Shown in pieces: positions 26,043 through 42,732 of a stretch of 64,000 nt of DNA (positions are counted from its first letter, which is position 1; every line of letters begins with the position of its first letter). The DNA is from Lobosporangium transversale. Lineage: Eukaryota. The stretch is from contig NW_019028989.1 in assembly GCF_002105155.1 (NCBI RefSeq), positions 186,001 through 250,000 of the forward strand, in the 5' to 3' direction. The position numbers and the translations under genes were made by a program. The notes under the pieces are model-generated. The model worked only from the letters and a program-made list of their open reading frames with translations. It had not been told where the DNA came from and searched no databases.

Positions 26043-28876
26043 TTAACGTGGTGCCAAAGGAGGTAAAGTAGGCAAGCCTTCGTGTAAAGAAACTTGTGAA
26101 TGAGTATGAGCACCATGACTATGGTGAGGATGAGCATGAGAATGAGAATGAGACGTCTGGTTATAGTTATGGCCATGGCTATGGCTATGGCTATGGTTAT
26201 GGCTGTGGCTGTGGCTGTGGCTGTGGCTGTGGCTTGGATGCGGGTATTGCTTTCCATACAAGTCATGGCCAACTACGGGAGCTGGGAGAGTCATTGGAGT
26301 AGGTGGGGGTAAAGAAGTCCCCTGAAATGGGCCGTGATGGGGCGATGTCATGGGACTCGACGGGTTCGTGACAGTACCAATCGATGGAAGTACGATTCCA
26401 GACCCCTGTGGATGGTGGTGAGGAGGATACTGTGCATGCTGATGCTGCTGAGAAGCATACTGTTGTTGAGGATGGCTATGTCCAGCAGGAGCAGGATAGG
26501 GCGAGGTATAGGGAGAAGTCGTCGCAGAAGGTGTTCCAGAAGAGGGTGCCGAAGAGATGGATGAGTGCGTCGAATGCGCAGAATGCTTCCGGCTCTTGTC
26601 GGATCCAGCCCCAGTGGTAGCGACCATTGGCAGCGCAGGCAACTGCGAGCTATAGTTGCCAGCATGGCCGCTACCACCACTACCGGTTTTTTGATCGCGA
26701 GCAGCCAAAGTTTCTGATGGCAAAAGCGATCGGTTGCCGCTACTACCAAAAGACGAACTTGATGCTCCTGTCCCAGAGACTGATACCGTTGCCGCTGCTG
26801 CTGCCGCGGCGGCGGCGGCGGCAGCGGCAGCAGCAGCAGCAGCAGCAGAAACTGCGGCTGAATGATGATGACTAGCAGGCACTGTAGGAAGAGCACTTGC
26901 TAAAGCATTGGAGTTGACAGATGTCTGTGGGTGAGGAGCCATGGGCGCTAGAGGTGGCGAAGAACAGGGACTGGACATTGGTGATGGCCCGACATGAATG
27001 TCATTGAAAGACTTTATGCCAGTGAAAGGATGTGGCAGGAGTCTAGGACGAGGACTCGACGAAGGCGAGACTTTTGATGCCTGACTCTTGGGCAAGATAG
27101 GATGAAGATGTCCGCTTGTCGACACTGGTCTCTTGGTCGCAGCACTGCTTGATGATGAATGCTGTTCAGGAGGGCTGTTGGAGACAGAGCCAGGAACAGA
27201 CGATAACGTGACATTTGAGCCAAATTGTGTGTGTGACTGCGTAGATGAACCCATTGGAGCCAAGCTTGGAATGGTTCCTTGACCAGGTCCTGGGATGATG
27301 GGTGGGGTGCTTATTCCGCTAGCAGATGTGGCGCTTCCACGTGCAGCCGGCTGTGGATGCTGCGGATTGGTGTGAGAAGGACCAGAATGTGGGCCATTTG
27401 GGCCATTACGACGCATCTGCGAACCCTGGTAGAAGAAACGCAGGGCAGCATTCTCTGATCTCAGTGAATGATTCTCAGTATGAAGTGCCTGAATTAACAC
27501 CATAAACGTTTTTAATATTAATTAATATTAATAAAAAAAAATAAATAAATAAAAAAAAAAAGGTGTCAGCTGGGGGAGAGTTTCTTGGGCGGTGTGACAA
27601 GGATGAAAAATGTGTGACAAGTCAAGATACATACCCGAAGATGCTCCAATGCTAATCGAAGGATTGTACCCTTGTTAAGCTTGGCAGTCGAAGAGCAATT
27701 GGGCAAGATCTCGGCGATTTGTAAGATAGTCGAGTTGAGTGTATCACGTCGACGACGTTCAACATGGTTATGGTTTTCTCGTCGACGGCGAATCATTTCG
27801 AGGGCGGTACGACTATCGAGACTATTCCTGTTGAGGATGTTGAGGCCGTTAATCTTGTATGCAGACTGACGCGTCTTGCCTGTGGATGTCGTTGCTGTAC
27901 CAGAGCTAGAGGTGTTGACCGATGTCGAGGATTTGCTGCTAGGCGAGCTGTCCTTGGAGACATTCATGTCAGAGGACTGGGCACCGGAACGAGTGAGACA
28001 GATGGGTTGAGGACTCGTGGGTCTTGAGGGTAGTAGAGGTCTAAGGGTAGGCCGTGGTTTAATATTAACTAGCGGGGCTTGCACAGCTGTCGCTGTTTTG
28101 TTGTTGGATGAAGATGGAGAGGAAGAGGAGGATGGTGAGGATTGGACTTGCGAATGAGACGTGTGCTGTTGATGCTGATAATGCTGTTGAGACGCTTGGG
28201 CTTGTTGAGGTTGTGACGAAAGGTAGTGTGGTTGATATCCCAGAGTTGAAATGTGTGAATGGCGAGAAGTGGAAGGAAGAGAGCAAGAAGAAGAAGATGC
28301 AGAAGAGGAAGGTGGATCTATCATGTCCTGATCAGGATTGTCCTCCTTTATTGTCACGCCTTCCATGTTGACGTCCTCGCTCTCACTATTACAGGCGCTG
28401 TTGTACGCGGTATTGTAGGCAGAATGATAGGTACTCTGATAGCCAGGATGGTCGTCATCATCGTCATCCTCGATTTCGTCATCTTCATCCTCATCATCGT
28501 CATCGAGCATCCGTCTATGGCTTCTGTAGTGCTGATGGTCATAAGGAGAGGGTTGGTAATGGCTAGAGTCCATACTGGAGTCCTTTGACTCTGGTTTGAC
28601 AGAGATGTGAAAACCTCGAGGAAGCAGAGGCTGATGTTGAGACTGGTGTTGCTGGTGATATGCCGGGTCATTTGAGGACTGTTGATAAGAATGCGATTGA
28701 TCGTATGGAGAATTGTGCAACGACTGTTGCTTCGGTTGGCTATCATATGGGCGTTGCTCGCTCAAGGCCATGGTTACAGACATTTTCAAATTAGATGTTG
28801 TTGAGGACTTTGGATTGGGTAAGGTTGACGCCAGGTCTGATGAAGTAGAGTGATATACTACTGTTGAGCTTGGCAT
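26043..28876 (-). CDS. bHLH transcription factor (E-box binding class B) with poly-Ala and His-Ser repeat tail
   Basis: Exons 28876-27635 and 27488-26043. Basic region RRRRENHNHVERRRRD has the H-E-R pattern; helix 2 KLNKGTILRLALEHLR|ALHTEN. Confidence 0.92.
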
Positions 28877-32776: not shown

Positions 32777-33744
32777 TAAGCAAGTGCCTGAGCAGATTGT
32801 GAGTTTGATGATGAGCCATGTAAAGAGATGTTGAATATCTACTCTACCCATCCCTTACATACACCTTTTGATAAACATTGTACAAATATATTACACATAA
32901 TGCAACGAAATGGTTGCATAATTGTCCATGTTTATGTGTTCTGTTTGCTTGGATATCGTTGCATCTTTGTTTTCTTGCTGTGAGCATCGCTCGTGCCACT
33001 CAACGTTTATTTGGCCACCTTTCCCCTGAAGAATTTTGCTTTAACCAAATTATAAATTACGAATGTGTCACAAGAAAGCAAGCTTTGTCTATCTATTTTG
33101 TTCCTCCCTTAACCACACTTTCTGGATACACTTTTTTTTTTTTTTTTTTTTTTATTTTTTTATTTTTTTTTTTTTTTCAATGCACATGCAAATAAATAAA
33201 AAGGGTCTCTGTGCTCTGGAGTCTAGGTTCCCTGCACTTGTTGACACTAAATGTGTAAACATTCTTATCTCTCATTTTGGTACAGTGCTACAGGTTTGGT
33301 TTATTGACTTTGCATGTACAGAAAGGACCAGTTCAGGCGCTTGAACACTCTTTTTTTTTTTTTTTTTTGCTATGTATGACCTAGACTGATTTTATTCAAG
33401 TTTGCGCACTATATCCTGTAACAGTTTGCCTTTCTCGAAGTGGAAGTCGCATTATGCTCGCATCAATCGCAAAGGAGCCCAATTTTCTTCGTACGTCCAT
33501 CATCTCGTTATTATTCTGTCTAGACAATTCAGTAACAGCTTCCTTTCGCTCTATTCATTTTCTTTCCTTCTCTTTAGCTCTCGCGACCTAAAATTGTCAT
33601 AGCAAAGATAATGAGAAGAGGCCTTCGAGGGGCTGTCCAAGGTGGTCATTGATATGGATCGTATCTTGGGCCTGCTCGAGCTGGGTACGTGCAGGTGCAG
33701 TATTGCCTTTGACATTGAATCCATTGCGGACTCTCTCTGCAAGG

Positions 33745-33930
33745 AGCCCTTTGTTTTTTCATGATCAGGACATGTGCAAGATAGAAGAACGGCGTTGTCT
33801 ATATCTACAGTGACGGAGTACTCTTTCCATGGCGTAAAAAATGATTTGACCATCAAAGCAAGCGTTGTTGCGGCATGGGGTTTCACGAAGTGCGACTCTG
33901 TATCTGGATGGGTCATACCGAATTGAAGAA
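33745..33930 (-). mobile_element. SWIM zinc-finger fragment, probably from a MULE/Mutator-type transposase
   Basis: VKSFFTPWKEYSVTVDIDNAVLLSCTCPDHEK matches the SWIM 'Y.V....C.C' half. The C.H half is missing. Confidence 0.55.
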
Positions 33931-34069
33931 CCACTAACAAGGGCTCACAAACACTTTGCGAAAAGGTACAACAACCCTTTCTCACACTGATAGATATTAA
34001 TATGTATATATCTAAGAAACAAAATATAGCTGACATGACATTTCTCTCCTTGATATTGTAGACCCAACC

Positions 34070-35540
34070 CCCAAAAGACAAAGGTGTTTTACCTGCTGAT
34101 GCACCAAGTTGCATTGACTGTAAAATCCCGGCCATTGAAAGAAAGCCTCATCCGTATGGGGAAAACTCTGGGGAATTCACGAAGGTTAGCTCCACTACCA
34201 TCGTTTGAGGATCCCTCCATATGATTGTCCGAGCTCGACCTAATCCTTATTCTCTGGAAAACAGCGCGTCCAAAGCTGAGCTGACTGTCTGAAGAAGAGC
34301 CTAGGTTCTTTATCAGCAAGATAGTTACCGACACTGGAGGCTTTAACGCAGAGCAATACCCAAGGCCCAAAGCATTCAAAGCCAAGACTTTTACGATGTC
34401 TCTATCAGAAATGAGAGACCATTTTTCGAGCCATTCAGGATGATAGCTTTGAACCAAGTGCATACACGAAGAATGGCTATGCCTTGTGAGGATCGATTCG
34501 AACCGATGCCCTCCTTCTTCAATTGCTGGCATTTAAGATGAGCGAGCCCAATGCAGTGAAGTATCAACGATTACCTGAGAACAAACTATCCCCTCGAATC
34601 ACCTCTTCAGTTGGAATCAGGAACATAATCAAGACCAGTGATGATGTTCACCGGCTTTGGGGATGTCAACTAGAAACTATCAAGCTTTTGGGCCTCGACC
34701 TCGGACAAGTATCTGTGGTTGGTGCCAGTGCTTTGTTGCCAAGTCATGGAAGCTTCATTGGTATAGCCGTACGACCCAAGTTCTACAATCTGGCTATCAA
34801 GCAAAAGACGGTGTATCAACCCACATTTAATCATCGAAACTGAAGGGAAAGGAGAGAAGCACCAGTCATTGATGGTTCTACAAAAACCATCAGTCATACT
34901 GAGAGCAGTCTACTACCTCTCTGTGGCAATGCTGCAAGCATCAAAGAGTACATCGACAAGCTTGTAGGAGCGGAGACACACCTCAGTTCCTTCTATAAGG
35001 GAAGAGCCATCAAAAGGCATCGGTGGAACGCGAAGAGGGCCCGAGATGAAGAATACGTTCAGATCGCCAATCGTTTGCTCAACATGGTGGGTGGATCAGT
35101 TGGGGTGAAAAGAAAAGAGAGCGACAAGGTTGTGATTGCTGTAGGTCTGGGGAAGTTTCCTTCCAATGCCAGGCTTTCTTCCTATACATGAGTCGTTCCA
35201 ATTTTACTTCATTCAAACAGTAAGTTTATTTTATTTTATTTTTTATTTTCTTAACGATAATAATACATCCACACTTCTAGGCCAGATCCTCTTGGATACA
35301 TTGTTGTCGGTGTGAACGAATATTATACTTTTAAGAAGTACCCAAGCTGCGAAGGATTTGTAGGGCAAGTTGACATCCATCTACTCTATTGTTCCAAGCG
35401 CAAGACATTTATGCACAGAGCTGTGATGGCTGGCCACAACATAGCCAACGTCGTCCGCGGTCATCTAATTCACCAACAGCAACCCCTCTACCTTCAGCCG
35501 ATAGACAAGAAAGAATTGAGCACATCCATGGATGAAAGAC
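34070..35540 (+). pseudogene. Decayed Fanzor/TnpB-like RNA-guided RuvC nuclease with a spliceosomal intron
   Basis: Reading across stops and frameshifts gives GSIRTDA (WED-like TDG), LLGLDLG (RuvC-I Asp 34697), VVIAVGLGKF (RuvC-II Gly 35144), VVGVNEYYT (Glu 35318), degenerate Zn-finger KYPSC..LYCSKR and MHRAVMAGHNI (RuvC-III position 35420). GTAAGT..CTTAAC..CTAG intron at 35220-35280. Confidence 0.8.
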
Positions 35541-35952
35541 AGTTGTTCAGTACGCGCCAAACGTCAAGCACCATTCGAGGCTGAAGAGGGATCAAGAAAT
35601 TGCAAAAAAACCCACTGATAGTTCTTAGATTAATGTAGTCTAGAAAATATGTATGTTCGCGAACACAGCCACGTCTGAGACGTTTGTGTGCTGTACCATC
35701 AACACATTCACACATACACATACACGCATTCTCTGGCTTGTTAATTGGCTGTACTTCTACCGTGGCTGTGAGGGTGGGGTAAACAGCCCTCAACTATTCA
35801 TCCATCTCATCCATACGGGTGCGGACTTTCGGCCACTGTCCAGAAGTCCTCTGATTCTGGAAATACTCACTGTCGCTCATCTGATGCCTTACAGGTGCAG
35901 GAAGAGAAAGAAGTCATTTATCTTTATTACTTTTATTCTGTGCTGAATTGCC

Positions 35953-36836: not shown

Positions 36837-37252
36837 TTAAAGCCCCAAAGAATTCTTTACGTATTTGGCAACCATGATGGCTGGGTTCTTAGGTGAGATA
36901 TAAAGTGCTGTGCATTCAACCAAAGTGTTGCCATGCAGATCATGAATGCTTGCATTCGTATACGCCTTTCGACCCTCTGTCTTTTCAAATTCAGCTGTAA
37001 CCATCACAAACTGATCTGCCTTGACAGGTTTGCGATAATTGATGTTCAAATTAGCTGTGAAGGCAATGTGTAAAGGAAGATTTGGTAGTGCCTAATTTTT
37101 TTTTTAAAAGAGAGGGGACGGTGAAGCAGCCGATTAGTTGTTGAAATTTTTTTTTTTTTTTTTTGATATTTTTCTCTTTTGATGTTATACTCAGATGAAC
37201 TTACCACCATACCGGTTGCCTCATCTACAAAGAGTAAAAAAAAAACATTGTT

Positions 37253-37287
<35 letters not shown>

Positions 37288-38100
37288 CACAAAGTAACGT
37301 TCTGATCAGCCGATGGTGATCGATCGGCAAACGACTGTATGAAGCACATTACCGAGAAGTGTGGCCAAAAGTCCGCCGTGGATTATCTGGTCGTGTCCAC
37401 AAAGACTGCGCCCTAGATGCATGAAGAGTACAATGGCCTTCTTATCCTTTCTCTCGAATTTTAGAGGATGAACACTCAACATGTTCTCTCCACGAAGAGT
37501 CCCAGCTGTCAGATGGTGAGGCTTTGTTGCTTTGGTCAAATACCAATACGGCTCTGCCTCCTTCCATTCACCCAATTTAGCCTTTGATTTATATTCCTTC
37601 ACAAGGTCCAACTCCTCCATTTGTTGTTCCAACAAAACGGATTTCTTGATCTCCTTTGCCTTTTCAGGACTAGGCTTGCCATTCGAAGGGTAGGCTTCGT
37701 CCGGCTCCTCTGTACCCAAGATCGTAGGCTGGATCTTGCCGATAGGCAAGCTACTGAATCCACCCACACTGTTGGGTTCATATTTGGCATAAGCAAGAGC
37801 GCCTGCAGCTGCCGAGACTGAAATAAGCGATAGCCGGCGAAACCATGCTGACAGGCCTCCCCCTGCCTGATGTGCTCTGGACTTTGGAGTATCAGCTGAT
37901 GGAGAAGACTGGGCTGGTGATGGTGATGACGGTGATGTCGGAGCAGTGCTGGTACTACTAGTCGAGTATAAACCGTATCTGTTTTTGGCCCAGCTTTGTG
38001 GATGCGGGCTGATCCATTCCCGGCTCAATCTGCCGGGGTGTGTTCGCAAGGATTGTGAGAGAACCCTTTGAAGGGCCCCAGTACGTGGTTGAAACATCAT
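36837..38100 (-). CDS. HotDog-fold acyl-CoA thioesterase (PaaI/THEM4/Fmp10-like), probably mitochondrial
   Basis: Exons 38100-37353, 37224-37205 (20-nt micro-exon) and 37091-36837 give LCGHDQIIHGGLLATLLDEATG...FTANLNINYRKPV. Arg/Ser-rich presequence-like N-terminus. Confidence 0.9.
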
Positions 38101-38452
38101 TTGTTATGTTGTTGGCTAGTCCAAATGGTTTCCTTTGTTCAGTTGAACTGAAATAGTGACAATTATTGATTGAAAGGAAAATGAGAAGAATAGGAATGAG
38201 AAGGAAAAAGAAGGTAAAGAAGGTAAAGAAGGTAAAAAGGTAAAGGTGATCACAGTTAAAAATTTCGGATGCAGCACCCCAGTTTCCGATTGCCTGCAAT
38301 ATGACAGCATGGTAAACAATTGGGTAGGAAGCCACCCTCCGAGCCCTTTCTTGAAGAGTCATGAATATTGTGGGAAAGTGAAGTTGTTTCCTTCTCCTTC
38401 CCGCTTTGGAAACAGAGTCGATTCATTCCTACCCTTCATTCACCGTCAAATC

Positions 38453-39729
38453 ATGTTTCGCTCTCTGCTACGCCCATCAGCTGCTGTCTTCAGGACTATT
38501 CCTGCCTCACACAGTGTAATCTTACGCCATGCCACAACGACTGCCACACCCACAATCAAACCCAATATTAAGCTCATTGCAGAGATTCGCAAAACAATTG
38601 AGGGTGTTTCCATGATGAAGGCCAAGGAAGCTCTCATTCAATCGGACAACAATCTCGAGAAGGCTCTTGAGTGGGTTCGTGAGGATGAGGCCAAGTCAGG
38701 TATTAAGAAAGCTGAGAAGCTTAAGGATCGTCAGGCTCTTGAAGGTCTTATTGGTGTTGTTGTGGGCGAAGTCGGAGAGCACGGAAACCGGGGTGCCATT
38801 GTGGAGGTACACACATACAAATATATATATATATATATATATATGGATCATTACCAGATATCTTGAATGCCATTCTTTACATCTTGTTAAATATGAATAC
38901 TCTGTGGCTGTTTTTTTTTTTTTTTTTTTAGGTCAACTGTGAGACCGATTTCGTCTCAAGGAATGATCTTTTCAAAGGACTGGTGAGCCAGATTGCTTCT
39001 ACTGCTCTTTTTGTCGTTGATGGATCACCTGCTATTGGATCAGGAACGGGTGATCAGAAGGGGCTCATGCAGGAGGTCCCTGTTTCAGACTTGCTGCAGG
39101 CACCCATTCTTCCTGATCCAGCAGCAGCAACGACGAATGCTCAAGCACAACAGCAGGAGCTCATTACCGTCCAGGAATCTATTACAAAAATGATTGCAAA
39201 GTTGAGCGAAAACATTTCATTACGTCGTTGTGCAGTCGTCAACATCCCTGAAAATCAGCGCGGATTGGTCTTGACTGGAGGTGCAACACATGGAGGCGAA
39301 AACCATCCGATCACTGGAAAGCTGGGAGCCATTTCTGTCTTGACATTAGTCTCAAAGCAAGGTGCTTCCAAGAAAGTCGTCCCCTCGATAGCCGTTACTA
39401 CTTTATCAAGGCAGTTGACACGTCATTTGATTGCTTCTCCATCACTCACCATCTATCAAGAAGACTGCAAGATCCCATTGGAAATCTCCAACGGGGGACA
39501 TGCTCCTCCTGAAGAGGTCGATGCATGGTTGGATGAGAGAGTCTTGATGCGTCAGCCATTTGTCTTTGGAGGTGGAAAAGTTGAGCAGGTGATTTCAAAG
39601 ATTGCCAAAGAGGAGGGTCTGAGGATTAAAGTGGTTGATGCTGTGCGATGGGAAAGAGGTGAAGGTATGGTCAAAGCCGAGGCTGCAGACTTTGCAGAAG
39701 AAGTTAGACATCAACTTGAGAAAAAGTAG
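38453..39729 (+). CDS. TSF1: Mitochondrial elongation factor Ts
   Basis: Exons 38453-38806 and 38932-39729. UBA-like N-domain (LIAEIRK..SMMKAKEAL), EGLIG, VEVNCETDFV signature, ENISLRR and DFAEEV C-terminus. Confidence 0.95.
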
Positions 39730-39968: not shown

Positions 39969-42203
39969 TTACGTGTACGCATACTGGGGTCCGCCGCCGC
40001 CCTCTGGAACTGTCCAATCGATGTTTTGGCTAGGATCCTTGATATCACATGTCTTGCAGTGAATGCAGTTCTGAGAGTTGATTTGCAATCTCTTCGAGCC
40101 TTCAGGACCATTCTCGTTCTCCACAAACTCATATACACCAGCAGGGCAGAAGCGACCCTCGGGTCCATCAAAAATCTTCAAGTTACGCTGGACGGGAATG
40201 TCCTTGTCCTTGAGACGTAAATGCACGGGCTGGTTCTCGGCATGGTTTGTGCCAGTTCTGGAGACTGAGGTGAGCAGATCAAATGAGATGACGCCATCAG
40301 GCTTGGGGTATTCGATCTTCTTAGAACCCTTGGCTGTTCTCAGACGCTCATGGTCTGGCGTCGTATTGTGGAATGTCCATGGTGTTCTACCTTTGAGGAG
40401 GATTGTGTCTATACCAGAGTAGAGCACACCTCCGATATTTCCGAGGGGGCTATGGAAACTAGGTCTACAGTTGCGAATTTCATTCAATTCCTTCCAGATC
40501 CAGCTCTCCTTGACCTTCTTCTCAAAGTCCTCCAAGACGATGGGCTTGTCTGGAGAGTAGTCTTTGGAGGTAATAGCAGCGTAAGCAGACTCAGCAGCCA
40601 ACATTCCGGATTTCATAGCAGTGTGTGTGCCCTTGATCTTAATCAAATTCAGGAATCCAGCTGTGCATCCGATCAAAGCTCCTCCAGGGAAGTAAAGCTT
40701 GGGAATTGACTGAAGTCCACCTTCGTTAAGGGCACGAGCAGCATAGGAGAGACATTCTCCTCCCTCAAGGAGATCTTTAACATATGGGTGATGCTTCCAG
40801 CGCTGGAACTCCTTGTAAGGGTGAAGATAGGGATTTTCATAGTCCAGGCCAACAACAAGACCCAAGCTGAGCATGTCATCGCCCATGTGATAAATAAAGG
40901 AACCACCATAAGTAGAATTGTCAATGGGCCAACCCAATCCGTGGACAACTGTGCCGGGCTTGGATTTGCTGGGATCGATCTTCCAGACCTCTTTTATGCC
41001 GATACCATATGTCTGAGGGTCACATTCATCACGCAGGTTGAACTGACGGAAGAGTTTCTTTGTCAAAGAACCGTGGCATCCTTCGGCAAAAAGCGTTACT
41101 TTGGCATGGAACTCCATACCGCGCTCAAAGTTATCCTTTGGTTGAAAATTCTTGTCCAATCCGACGTCGTTGGTTGCAACTCCTTTCACGCTTCCATCCT
41201 CGTTGTACAAGATCTACAATTGTAAAAGACAAATATTCATATCAGCATCTTGGATTTTTTTTTTGTACAAGCGTGGGAAAAAGTCGAGTCAAGATGTGTC
41301 ATATTTACCTCGCTAGCAGCAAATCCAGGAAAAACTTCAACGCCAGCCTCCTCGGCTTGCTCACCTAACCACTTCACATAGTTGCTCAGAGATACAATGT
41401 AGTTGCCTTTATTATTCATCTGAGGTGGATGGGGCAAAGGGATAGCATAGTTCTTAGTGAAGAGCTTCATATGGTCACTGAGGGCTGGTTGGTTCAAAGG
41501 AGCCTGATTTGAAAATACAAATAAATATCGGACAAATGTTAATGATCGCTGTCTCATGCTCTCATGACCTCACAAGAGACACAGAATGATTAAAACTGTA
41601 TTTTTAAAGTTAACTTACTCCCTTCTCTTTCCAGTCAGGGATCAATTCATCCAGAGCACGAGGTTCAAGAACAGCTCCAGAGACAGTATGGGCTCCTGTA
41701 AAAGAAAATAAAGTTGTTGAGTTTCAGGCGAGTTATGAACAGATCATAGAGAACAAACGATAATAGGCATAGCCGGATCTCTTACCAATCTCGCCAGCCT
41801 TCTCCAATAGGACCACACGGATTTCTTGACCTCCAGCACTTGCAAGCTGCTTCAGCTTGATGGCAGCACTGAGACCAGCTGGGCCTCCGCCGACGATGAC
41901 TACATCGGTCTCATCAGCATAACGTTCAGCTTTAGTTGGATCTTCAGAGTCTTCCATAGTTTCCTCGTCGCTCAACCTTGGGAGGGATTGAGAAAAGGCG
42001 CGAATGGCAGTGTTGTTTGCGCGAGCATAATTGAAGGGAACCTTGTGCGTGATAGATGCACCTTGACGGCGTCCAATAGCAGAGGAAATAGTGACAAAAG
42101 TGCGTTTAGGAGTAGAGCTGGCCCTTGTGCCTGTCACAGCAGAGCGTGCAAAGGCTGAATTTAGGGCGCGAGAGGATCTACCCAGGGTGACAAGGGACGA
42201 CAT
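39969..42203 (-). CDS. ETFDH: Electron transfer flavoprotein-ubiquinone oxidoreductase (ETF-QO)
   Basis: Exons 42203-41786, 41695-41619, 41503-41309 and 41213-39969. FAD motif [24 protein letters not shown]; 4Fe-4S motifs RFCPAGVYE and [13 protein letters not shown]. Confidence 0.97.
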
Positions 42204-42732
42204 GATGAATGATCCTGGTCCTGATCCTGAGATGACAAGCTACTGAATGAGAGAAAGAGAGGAGGAAGAGAGGGGAGGGAATAGAGGTAAGAAAGGAAAA
42301 AAAGAGCGTGCGGAGAAAAAAGAAAGGAAAGGCAAGCTTTCTCCGAAGATTTATTTTTTTGACGTTTGTTCCGTGGGACGAAAATAACCACCAGTGATTT
42401 CTTATTGCAAATCCTTTCGTTCATTGGAGGACATGTCGCGAAAACACCGAGAAGTAAAGTTCATCGCGCGAGCTGCACCAGGTTGTTGTCAATTAGACCG
42501 CATTTAGGTGTTTTATACAGAATAAGTGCACACGTAAAGCTATCGACCATCTCTGGCATGTGATCCATGTTGTCAGCAGAACCTTAATGGTCAATCTCAA
42601 TCCTGCATACTACGCGTCATTCTAACCTCATTCTTTTTCACACCACGTTCCCACGAACATTTCTTCTCTTTGTCTCTTTTCCATACAAATATTCTCTACA
42701 CAAATAAGTTCCTTATTATCTTCTTCTTAACC

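What the first reader, a model, noticed from the sequence alone, without database searches (positions are those of the whole stretch)
34070..35540. Hidden intron-containing Fanzor/TnpB-like RNA-guided nuclease gene (decayed) in an apparently intergenic region
Seen: reading through stops (TGA at 34222, 34282, 34487, 34841) and several small frameshifts recovers a colinear protein of about 450 aa: ..NSRRLAPLP..LSELDLILILWK..EPRFFISKIVTDTG..GYAL*GSIRTDALLLQLLAFK..IKLLGLDLGQVSVVGA..FYNLAIKQKTVYQP..SFYKG..KRHRWNAKRARDEEY..LLNMVGG..KVVIAVGLGKF..HESFQFYFIQT|ARSLGYIVVGVNEYYTFKKYPSC..LYCSK..MHRAVMAGHNI..PLYLQP. Known: this order (WED TDG, RuvC-I GxDxG, bridge helix, RuvC-II, Zn finger, RuvC-III RD) is the TnpB/Fanzor architecture. 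Gly at the canonical RuvC-II Glu, with an alternative Glu in 'vxEyyTS' before the Zn finger, is the rearranged site typical of Fanzors. Inference: this is a fossil of a divergent fungal Fanzor1-type family. This copy is dead (RuvC-III codon is Ala GCT, Zn cysteines lost), but intact sister copies could be a new eukaryotic programmable nuclease system. The ORF track shows only two disconnected fragments.
Basis: partly seen in the sequence, partly recalled or inferred. Interest (0 to 1): 0.9.

Follow-up and report, generated by a model that had tools for sequence, protein, structure and literature searches.

The report
Dead Mutator transposon carrying FEN1-Fanzor fusion
This stretch is the broken remnant of a fungal Mutator-type jumping gene whose intact relatives pair a transposase with a Fanzor-family protein fused to a DNA-end-trimming (FEN1/EXO1-fold) domain and a predicted guide RNA, and which likely cut and trim emptied sites so that the element is copied back.

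Summary
The dead, spliced Fanzor1 gene is real (four stops, four frameshifts, two introns, RuvC-III Asp now Ala), but it is only part of a larger element. The window also holds the 3' end of a Mutator (MULE) transposase on the minus strand and a decayed right end. Intact relatives in Mortierellaceae and soil or peat metagenomes are 7-8 kb elements: 21-26 bp terminal inverted repeats, a 9-bp target duplication (one matched pair), a transposase head-to-head with a ~1200-aa FEN1/EXO1-Fanzor1 fusion that keeps both active sites, and a covarying two-hairpin RNA-like module ending at the last base of the element. In one family all 6 left junctions have GTGAYG exactly 15 nt outside the end. The Fanzor cores are already listed as FZ1 in a supplement of Saito 2023, so the family is not new. 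The FEN1 fusion, the transposase-bearing Mutator host and the displaced motif were not found in the papers searched. This scan noted FEN1-Fanzor fusions earlier in smut fungi. Likely role: RNA-guided cutting plus resection for restorative homing; no activity has been tested.

The parts
33459..33826 (-). 3' remnant of a MULE (Mutator) transposase gene: broken SWIM finger and C-terminal helices, frameshifted and with stops
   Evidence: A profile of transposase C-termini from 6 related loci hits 33826-33749 (E 3.3e-6) and 33743-33459 (E 3.7e-8); next best in the window E 0.23. blastn 33479-33850 to L002/L027/L028 58%, E 8.7e-7, and 33738-33856 to L032 66%, E 1.2e-7.
33859..33948 (+). Probable remnant of the FEN1-like N-terminal domain (YLDG motif), stranded between two internal deletions; weak
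   Evidence: Best hit of the N-terminal profile in all six frames of 64 kb, but only 4.2 bits, E 0.76. DNA alignments to 9 loci: 3 of 9 beat all but 1 of 200 random windows, the other 6 were not significant.
33926..33965 (+). End of a Fanzor exon (NKGSQTLCEK), matching P0003 residues ~626-638
   Evidence: Profile hit from 33939; blastn to L006 across exon, intron and next exon, E 1.2e-4.
33966..34061 (+). Intron (GT..AG) at the CEK|IQ position shared with relatives
   Evidence: Sequence; same position in L027, L014 and L006.
34062..35219 (+). Main Fanzor1 exon (WED TDG motif degraded to TDA, RuvC-I GLDLG with Asp at 34697, RuvC-II Gly); 4 TGA stops, 3 frameshifts, deletions of ~8 and ~24 codons
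35220..35280 (+). Intron (GTAAGT..TAG) at the conserved QT|ARSLG position
   Evidence: same intron in L027 and L014; skipped in a contig of run X24 (RNA by guess).
35281..35584 (+). Last exon: 1-nt frameshift near 35290, alternative Glu (35318), zinc finger with 2 of 4 Cys lost, RuvC-III Asp replaced by Ala (35420)
   Evidence: Pfam Cas12f1-like_TNB E 0.0018, below the curated cut-off.
35636..35697 (+). Decayed right end and omegaRNA-like module: first stem (35651-35668) and the invariant GACGT (35679-35683) kept, most of the long terminal hairpin deleted; end placed near 35697
   Evidence: Alignment with 13 relatives; the window copy no longer folds better than shuffles, z -0.33.

Best explanation
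The window holds a dead, internally deleted copy of a Mutator-type DNA transposon whose intact relatives encode a MULE transposase, a FEN1/EXO1-Fanzor1 fusion protein and a predicted right-end guide RNA, and which likely work by restorative homing. Shown: the element's anatomy, both folds and the conserved catalytic residues in relatives. Inferred: the right-end RNA reads through into the flank, which becomes the guide; Fanzor cuts the vacated donor site; the fused 5' nuclease resects the ends into 3' overhangs, favouring homologous repair from a sister copy that still holds the element. The GTGACG motif 6 nt before the 9-bp duplication is most likely set by the transposase's target choice and would supply the constant landmark that a variable duplication cannot.
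For: Fusion: AF2 model of P0003 (pLDDT 79.9); residues 2-297 match EXO1/FEN1 at Z 23, rmsd 2.5 A; residues 445-1122 match PpFz Z 18.6 and SpuFz Z 17.9. In L001 one stop-free 461-codon frame runs from the FEN C-terminal helices into the Fanzor WED/REC part. Of 28 homologs of 950 aa or more, 14 keep all seven FEN acids, 21 keep D-E-D plus four Cys, 11 keep both; most failures are truncated models. Element: transposase homology upstream on the opposite strand in 15 of 45 loci, about 7 distinct families; Pfam MULE E 6e-4 and 9e-3, SWIM 9e-7, FAR1 0.03 on single exons; terminal inverted repeats 22/22, 20/21 and 24/26; near-identical copies diverge exactly at the repeat; a 9/9 duplication between a left flank in run X9 and the right flank of L027. 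RNA: stem 1 has 4 of 6 pairs with two-sided change and 0/500 shuffles reaching the covariation score; 10 relatives fold at z -1.6 to -6.8, and in most the terminal stem closes at or within a few bases of the last base of the repeat; the + strand folds better in 11 of 11. Homing model: PMC13565253 section 6.2.
Against: No activity, RNA ends or TAM measured. The motif is not adjacent to the predicted protospacer, unlike the Fanzor TAMs in the passages read. MULE excision already leaves a break, which lessens the need for Fanzor (same section). RuvC-I is DLG in 35 of 48 and DPG in only 2 of 48, whereas PMC10711439 calls DPG near-exclusive in Fanzors. L031 (10 kb of upstream held), L023 and L025 show no transposase hit. 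MULE Pfam scores are below the curated cut-off (exon pieces only). The duplication rests on one pair from two assemblies; no single contig shows matching flanks. The covariation control ignores relatedness.
Confidence: 0.6

Rival explanations
1. Fanzor directs insertion: the FEN1-Fanzor complex binds GTGACG as a TAM (with or without a guide) and positions the transposase at a fixed distance, a eukaryotic analogue of CRISPR-associated transposons; FEN1 would tidy the integration junctions.
For: One-sided motif at a fixed 15-nt distance in 6 of 6 left junctions of one family; the 3 found after the pattern was noted give P about 6e-10. No mirror motif in the 3 right flanks long enough to check (by eye). 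The same GTGACGT is the invariant core of the right-end hairpin.
Against: The 15-nt spacers share no fixed sequence, and none matches a known right flank apart from the duplication itself. The insertion point would lie inside an R-loop. Other families show the motif reversed (CGTCAC + 10 nt in L009 and L020), palindromic (L012, both readings), degenerate (L014, L025) or absent (L013), which fits a palindrome-binding protein better.
Confidence: 0.1
2. The FEN1 domain serves transposition rather than homing (flap removal or gap repair at junctions, or opening hairpin-sealed donor ends), while Fanzor homes unaided; the motif is bound by the transposase's FAR1/WRKY-like domain or by a host bZIP factor (CRE-like TGACGTCA).
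For: FEN1/EXO1 fold with gateway Lys/Arg conserved; FAR1-like N-terminus, E 0.03; ACGT-centred half-palindromes at the junctions. CRE motif and hairpin excision by MULEs are recalled, not from a call.
Against: FEN1 is fused to Fanzor, not to the transposase, in all full-length genes examined.
Confidence: 0.22
3. The fusion is passive cargo (Pack-MULE-like capture) or an annotation artefact joining two neighbouring genes, and the right-end hairpins are DNA foldbacks.
For: MULEs are known to capture genes (abstract of PMC9168764). No RNA contig across the FEN-Fanzor junction was listed.
Against: A single open frame spans the junction in L001; catalytic residues of both halves are kept at 34-52% overall identity across many genera; G-U-rich strand asymmetry.
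Confidence: 0.08

Closest known systems
Fanzor1 (SpuFz1, GtFz1, PpFz1; PMC10432273, PMC11423790)
   Same: Fold, TDG motif, Gly at canonical RuvC-II with the alternative Glu six residues before a C4 finger, RD motif, introns, structured 3' module. Cores of this very family are listed as FZ1 in Supplementary Table 1 of PMC10432273.
   Different: N-terminal FEN1/EXO1 domain (~300 aa) and ~1200 aa length; RuvC-I mostly DLG, not DPG; candidate target motif is GC-containing and displaced by 6 nt; the window copy is dead.
MuDR-like Fanzor1 elements ROr-4, PBl-3, MCi-4 (Bao and Jurka 2013, PMC3627910 section 12)
   Same: Fanzor1 inside Mutator-type terminal repeats with 9-bp duplications in early-diverging fungi.
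   Different: Those were reported to lack a transposase; here about 7 families carry one head-to-head with the Fanzor gene. No FEN1 fusion or target motif is reported in that section.
EXO1/FEN1/XPG 5' nuclease superfamily
   Same: Z 21-23, rmsd 2.5-3 A over ~270 residues; seven acidic residues and gateway Lys/Arg conserved.
   Different: Fused to an RNA-guided nuclease inside a transposon; only 15-19% identity; subfamily not resolved.
IS200/IS605 TnpB restorative homing (bioRxiv 10.1101/2023.03.14.532601, seen as listing and abstract start only)
   Same: Transposase plus RuvC nuclease plus right-end RNA, with a conserved motif outside the left end.
   Different: DDE cut-and-paste transposase with a variable 9-bp duplication; motif not adjacent to the end; extra nuclease domain.

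Membership tests
Fanzor1 | D-X(125,275)-[TS]-[TS]-X-X-C4 finger-X(5,50)-RD (PMC3627910) | tested here: met
   P0003: 188 and 5 residue spacings; 21 of 28 long homologs keep D, E, D and 4 Cys. The window copy itself fails (Ala for Asp, 2 Cys lost, TS to TF).
Fanzor1 | Gly/Pro at canonical RuvC-II, alternative Glu just before the zinc finger | tested here: met
   G1026 and E1063 in P0003; Glu in 32 of the 35 rows covering the site among the patterns printed; criteria.
Fanzor1 | TDG motif in WED (PMC10711439) | tested here: met
   TDG 37 of 48, TNG 9 of 48; window has TDA.
Fanzor1 | RuvC-I reads DPG (near-exclusive per PMC10711439) | tested here: not met
   DLG 35, DGG 7, DAG 3, DPG 2, DMG 1 of 48. 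The same family is nevertheless labelled FZ1 in PMC10432273 Supplementary Table 1.
Fanzor1 | Fold of solved Fanzor1 proteins | tested here: met
   Foldseek ranks 1-6 are SpuFz, GtFz, PpFz; Z 17.9-18.6 over ~480 residues; model of homolog P0003, not of the window copy.
Fanzor1 | Conserved structured omegaRNA at the right end followed by a variable guide | tested here: inconclusive
   Conserved, covarying, strand-biased structure and variable flank shown; the RNA itself and its ends were not observed.
Fanzor1 | RNA-guided, TAM-dependent DNA cleavage | not testable with these tools
   Needs biochemistry.
MULE/Mutator transposon | MULE DDE transposase (with SWIM finger and FAR1/WRKY-like N-terminus) | tested here: met
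   Pfam MULE E 6e-4 (L002) and 9e-3 (L014), below cut-off on single exons; SWIM 9e-7 above cut-off; FAR1 0.03. The DSTH, CxFH and TNNxxESWH motifs seen are matched to the DDE triad from recall.
MULE/Mutator transposon | Terminal inverted repeats | tested here: met
   22/22 (L002 type), 20/21 (L009 type), 24/26 (L014). Left end not found in the window copy.
MULE/Mutator transposon | 8-11 bp target-site duplication | tested here: inconclusive
   One exact 9-bp match among 6 left and 5 right flanks of one family; none within a single contig; none for the window copy.
FEN1/EXO1/XPG nucleases | Fold and seven acidic active-site residues | tested here: met
   (relatives); only a weak remnant in the window.
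FEN1/EXO1/XPG nucleases | 5' flap or 5'-3' exonuclease activity | not testable with these tools
   Needs biochemistry.

The most novel reading that the evidence does not exclude
These elements are eukaryotic Fanzor-directed transposons: the FEN1-Fanzor-RNA complex reads GTGACG and places the Mutator transposase 6/15 nt downstream, a natural eukaryotic counterpart of CRISPR-associated transposons with a built-in end-processing nuclease.
Probability: 0.1. Interest if true: 0.96.

Novelty: new variant of a known kind. Interest (0 to 1): 0.74.

Why it matters
If the intact elements work as inferred, they are a natural RNA-guided nuclease with its own resection domain, the design that engineers build by fusing exonucleases to Cas enzymes to favour homologous repair (recalled). 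They also make a stated open problem testable: how a Fanzor can recognise a constant motif when its host transposon has a variable duplication (PMC13565253 section 6.2 lists MuDR as such a case). L027 and L014 give complete elements with apparently intact fusion genes, defined ends and a candidate RNA and motif. The window copy is only the fossil that points to them.

Tried and rejected
No genome is held for the window, so paralogs in the host could not be counted; no second copy lies in the window. phmmer of the window fragment against PDB sequences found nothing. No relatives in viral contigs. No Rfam match in L002, L009, L014. An apparent tandem array (L002, L020, L013) was rejected: these are adjacent or nested insertions of different families. 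The window's left end and duplication were not found: alignments to 6 left-end regions did not beat random windows; GGTACAG at 33279 is only a 7-nt candidate. A fixed, self-encoded guide was considered and not supported, since beyond GTGACG the spacers differ and at least one similar flank (X6) is another element's right end. The 60-nt skip in X24 is a tandem-repeat variant, not an intron. The run search was made with L027, not the window; no holder on record as RNA was listed, and X24 had no cover over the FEN exon at 95% likeness; neither bears on expression. The ESM Atlas was unavailable. Active-site geometry in the model was not inspected. No complex was predicted. Literature searches with no relevant hit: Fanzor+Mortierella 0, Fanzor+XPG 0 (19), Fanzor+flap endonuclease+fusion+fungi 2 held, 1 listed, a virus paper (20), TnpB+FEN1+Fanzor 3 by listing, two reviews and one unrelated tool paper (37), Fanzor+MULE+transposase 0 (68), Fanzor+MuDR+exonuclease 1 review (84); these hits were not opened.

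Full report
OBSERVATION. Frames change near 34140, 34425-34430, 35187 and 35290. The intron is 35220-35280; Asp of GLDLG is at 34697, Glu of VNEYY at 35318, and HRAVM has GCT at 35420. The last exon alone gives a weak Pfam Cas12f1-like_TNB hit (E 0.0018). The surrounding genes are spliced and fungal-like, and all named homologs are Mortierellaceae, so the host is probably of that family (inference).

INTACT RELATIVES. The read-through fragment found 16 longer proteins among 2362 candidates and 435 cluster representatives at E 0.001 or better (150 listed, unnamed). The best, P0003 (1186 aa), aligns to the window at E 2e-125 but only over residues 639-1136. A whole-length search returned 34 proteins from many Mortierellaceae genera. 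Their N-termini match XPG_I and Rad2, FEN1 and EXO1. The AF2 model (48-row alignment, pLDDT 79.9) gives SpuFz, GtFz and PpFz as Foldseek ranks 1-6, then EXO1 and FEN1. Structural alignment assigns residues 2-297 to EXO1/FEN1 (Z 23, 2.5 A) and 445-1122 to Fanzor1 (Z 17.9-18.6). Among 28 homologs of 950 aa or more (shorter ones were left out), 14 keep all seven FEN acids, 21 keep D-E-D and four Cys, and 11 keep both; most misses are truncated gene models, but P0008, P0026 and P0041 carry real substitutions. The fusion is not just gene calling: in L001 a single 461-codon stop-free frame runs from the FEN C-terminal helices into the Fanzor region. L027 and L014 show stops only at intron positions within the aligned segments. 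Against textbook Fanzor signature: RuvC-I is DLG in 35 of 48 rows and DPG in 2.

THE ELEMENT. A metagenome scan gave 45 loci from 90 pattern matches. Window 33479-33856 matched DNA upstream of the fusion gene in L002, L027, L028 and L032, which on the minus strand is the end of a transposase with MULE, SWIM and FAR1-like exons. A profile of six such C-termini hits the window at 33826-33459 with E 3.7e-8 and 3.3e-6. Transposase homology lies upstream and divergent in 15 of 45 loci, about 7 families; many other loci are too short upstream, but L031 (10 kb held), L023 and L025 have none. Complete elements have terminal inverted repeats: GATTCCAGGACAATGGGCGCGA, 22/22, 7.4 kb (L002, L027, L028); 20/21, 5.6 kb (L009, L012, L013); 24/26, 7.9 kb (L014). 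Near-identical copies diverge exactly at the repeat. A left flank in run X9 ends ACCTTCCCA, the first nine bases of the right flank of L027: one match among 6 by 5 flanks. No single contig shows matching flanks, as expected when multi-copy elements collapse in assembly (inference). The window copy lost most of the transposase and the first ~620 codons of the fusion. A weak YLDG remnant at 33859-33948 suggests two deletions. L032 is a similar deletion derivative.

RIGHT-END RNA. Downstream of the stop, relatives share a ~110-nt module. Stem 1 has two-sided changes in 4 of 6 pairs, 92.9% of cells paired, 0 of 500 shuffles reaching the covariation score, and beats slid controls; that control ignores relatedness. 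Ten relatives fold at z -1.6 to -6.8, most with a long terminal hairpin, often capped by UUCG, closing at or near the last base of the repeat. RNAalifold on the MAFFT alignment recovered only stem 1. The + strand folds better than the - strand in 11 of 11. No Rfam family matches. The window keeps stem 1 and GACGT but has lost most of the terminal hairpin (z -0.33). A contig of run X24, RNA only by guess, skips the conserved GT..AG intron before ARSLG in a relative 95-99% like L027: a hint of splicing, not proof of expression.

TARGET MOTIF. In the L002 family, GTGACG ends exactly 15 nt before the left end in L002, L027 and L028. Three further junctions seen afterwards agree: X9 and X7 exactly, X6 as GTGATG. 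With the background measured in the loci, P is about 6e-10 for those three. With a 9-bp duplication the target reads GTGACG-N6-[9 bp]. The 3 right flanks long enough to check lack a mirror motif. Other families are looser: L012 GTGACG+14 within a palindrome, L009 and L020 CGTCAC+10, L014 CGACG+15, L025 only ACG, L013 none; one X24 junction showed too little flank. These runs are peat metagenomes of one year and may be one population, though the sites differ. The motif is also the invariant core of the right-end hairpin, and X6 is an insertion into another element's right end at exactly this spacing.

MECHANISM. Shown: anatomy, folds, conserved active-site residues in relatives, end structure and motif. 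Inferred by analogy with TnpB and Fanzor homing (PMC13565253 sections 5.5 and 6.2, read in full): the right-end RNA takes its guide from the flank, the RuvC cuts the emptied site, and the fused 5' nuclease resects it to favour copying the element back (0.6). Rivals: FEN1 serves transposition and the motif belongs to the transposase or a host bZIP factor (0.22); Fanzor directs insertion (0.1); passive cargo (0.08). The same section notes that known Fanzors use a fixed 5' duplication as part of the TAM and that MuDR duplications vary. The displaced motif is a candidate answer, but no TAM in the passages read is separated from its protospacer.

WHAT IS KNOWN. PMC3627910 (passages and section 12) reports MuDR-like Fanzor1 elements in Mucorales without a transposase. 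PMC10432273 (passages; supplements) has 84 Mortierella, 25 Linnemannia and 15 Podila mentions in Supplementary Table 1. These include FZ1-labelled members of this family and at least two long FZ1 entries whose N-termini look FEN1-like by eye, all described there as hypothetical proteins; XPG does not occur in the searched files, and one picture-only PDF could not be searched. PMC10530073 (passages, section 11, supplements), PMC10711439 (passages), PMC11423790 (passages) and PMC13565253 (passages) gave no mention of a FEN1/PIN fusion under the terms searched. Six full-text searches found no paper on the fusion or on a transposase-bearing MULE-Fanzor. Subscription papers, bioRxiv supplements, patents and Repbase were not searchable and may hold it. 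Two earlier AI notes of this scan describe FEN1-Fanzor fusions in smut fungi. I had reached the fusion reading before that look-up; a sequence look-up found no look-alike to P0003, and I did not test their relationship.

VERDICT. A real but dead copy; a new variant of Fanzor1 elements rather than a new system. Interest 0.74, carried by the intact relatives.

Noticed in passing
L002:193-217, L027:145-169, L028:185-209; loose ends in runs X9, X6, X7: GTGAYG exactly 15 nt outside the left end in 6 of 6 junctions of one family; three flanks also begin GATTC, like the terminal repeat itself.
   Followed up: yes
Run X6 loose end at L027:169: An element inserted into the right-end hairpin of a related element, at motif + 15 nt; such nesting would destroy the other element's RNA module.
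   Followed up: partly
L027:7624 loose ends in runs X8, X9, X24: The last 5 bases of the right repeat vary (GAATC versus CTTTC) among copies otherwise matching the same 3' region.
   Followed up: no
L031:10001-13664; L025:81-5395; L023: Full-length FEN1-Fanzor genes (L031 and L025 also with right ends) but no transposase hit upstream; L025 carries a second partial copy of its 3' module near its left end (about 150-300).
   Followed up: no
L005:2380-2460: The hairpin motif TTCGGTGACGTAG is tandemly duplicated in the right end.
   Followed up: no
PMC10432273 Supplementary Table 1, rows 1271 and 1302: More distant Mortierellaceae FZ1 entries (1273 and 1786 aa) also appear to start with a FEN1-like domain, suggesting the fusion extends beyond the family studied here.
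   Followed up: no
window 27566-28876 (-), 36837-38103 (-), 38174-39729 (+), 39969-42239 (-): Ordinary-looking spliced host genes flank the element: by recalled resemblance a bHLH factor, a thioesterase, mitochondrial EF-Ts and ETF-ubiquinone oxidoreductase.
   Followed up: no
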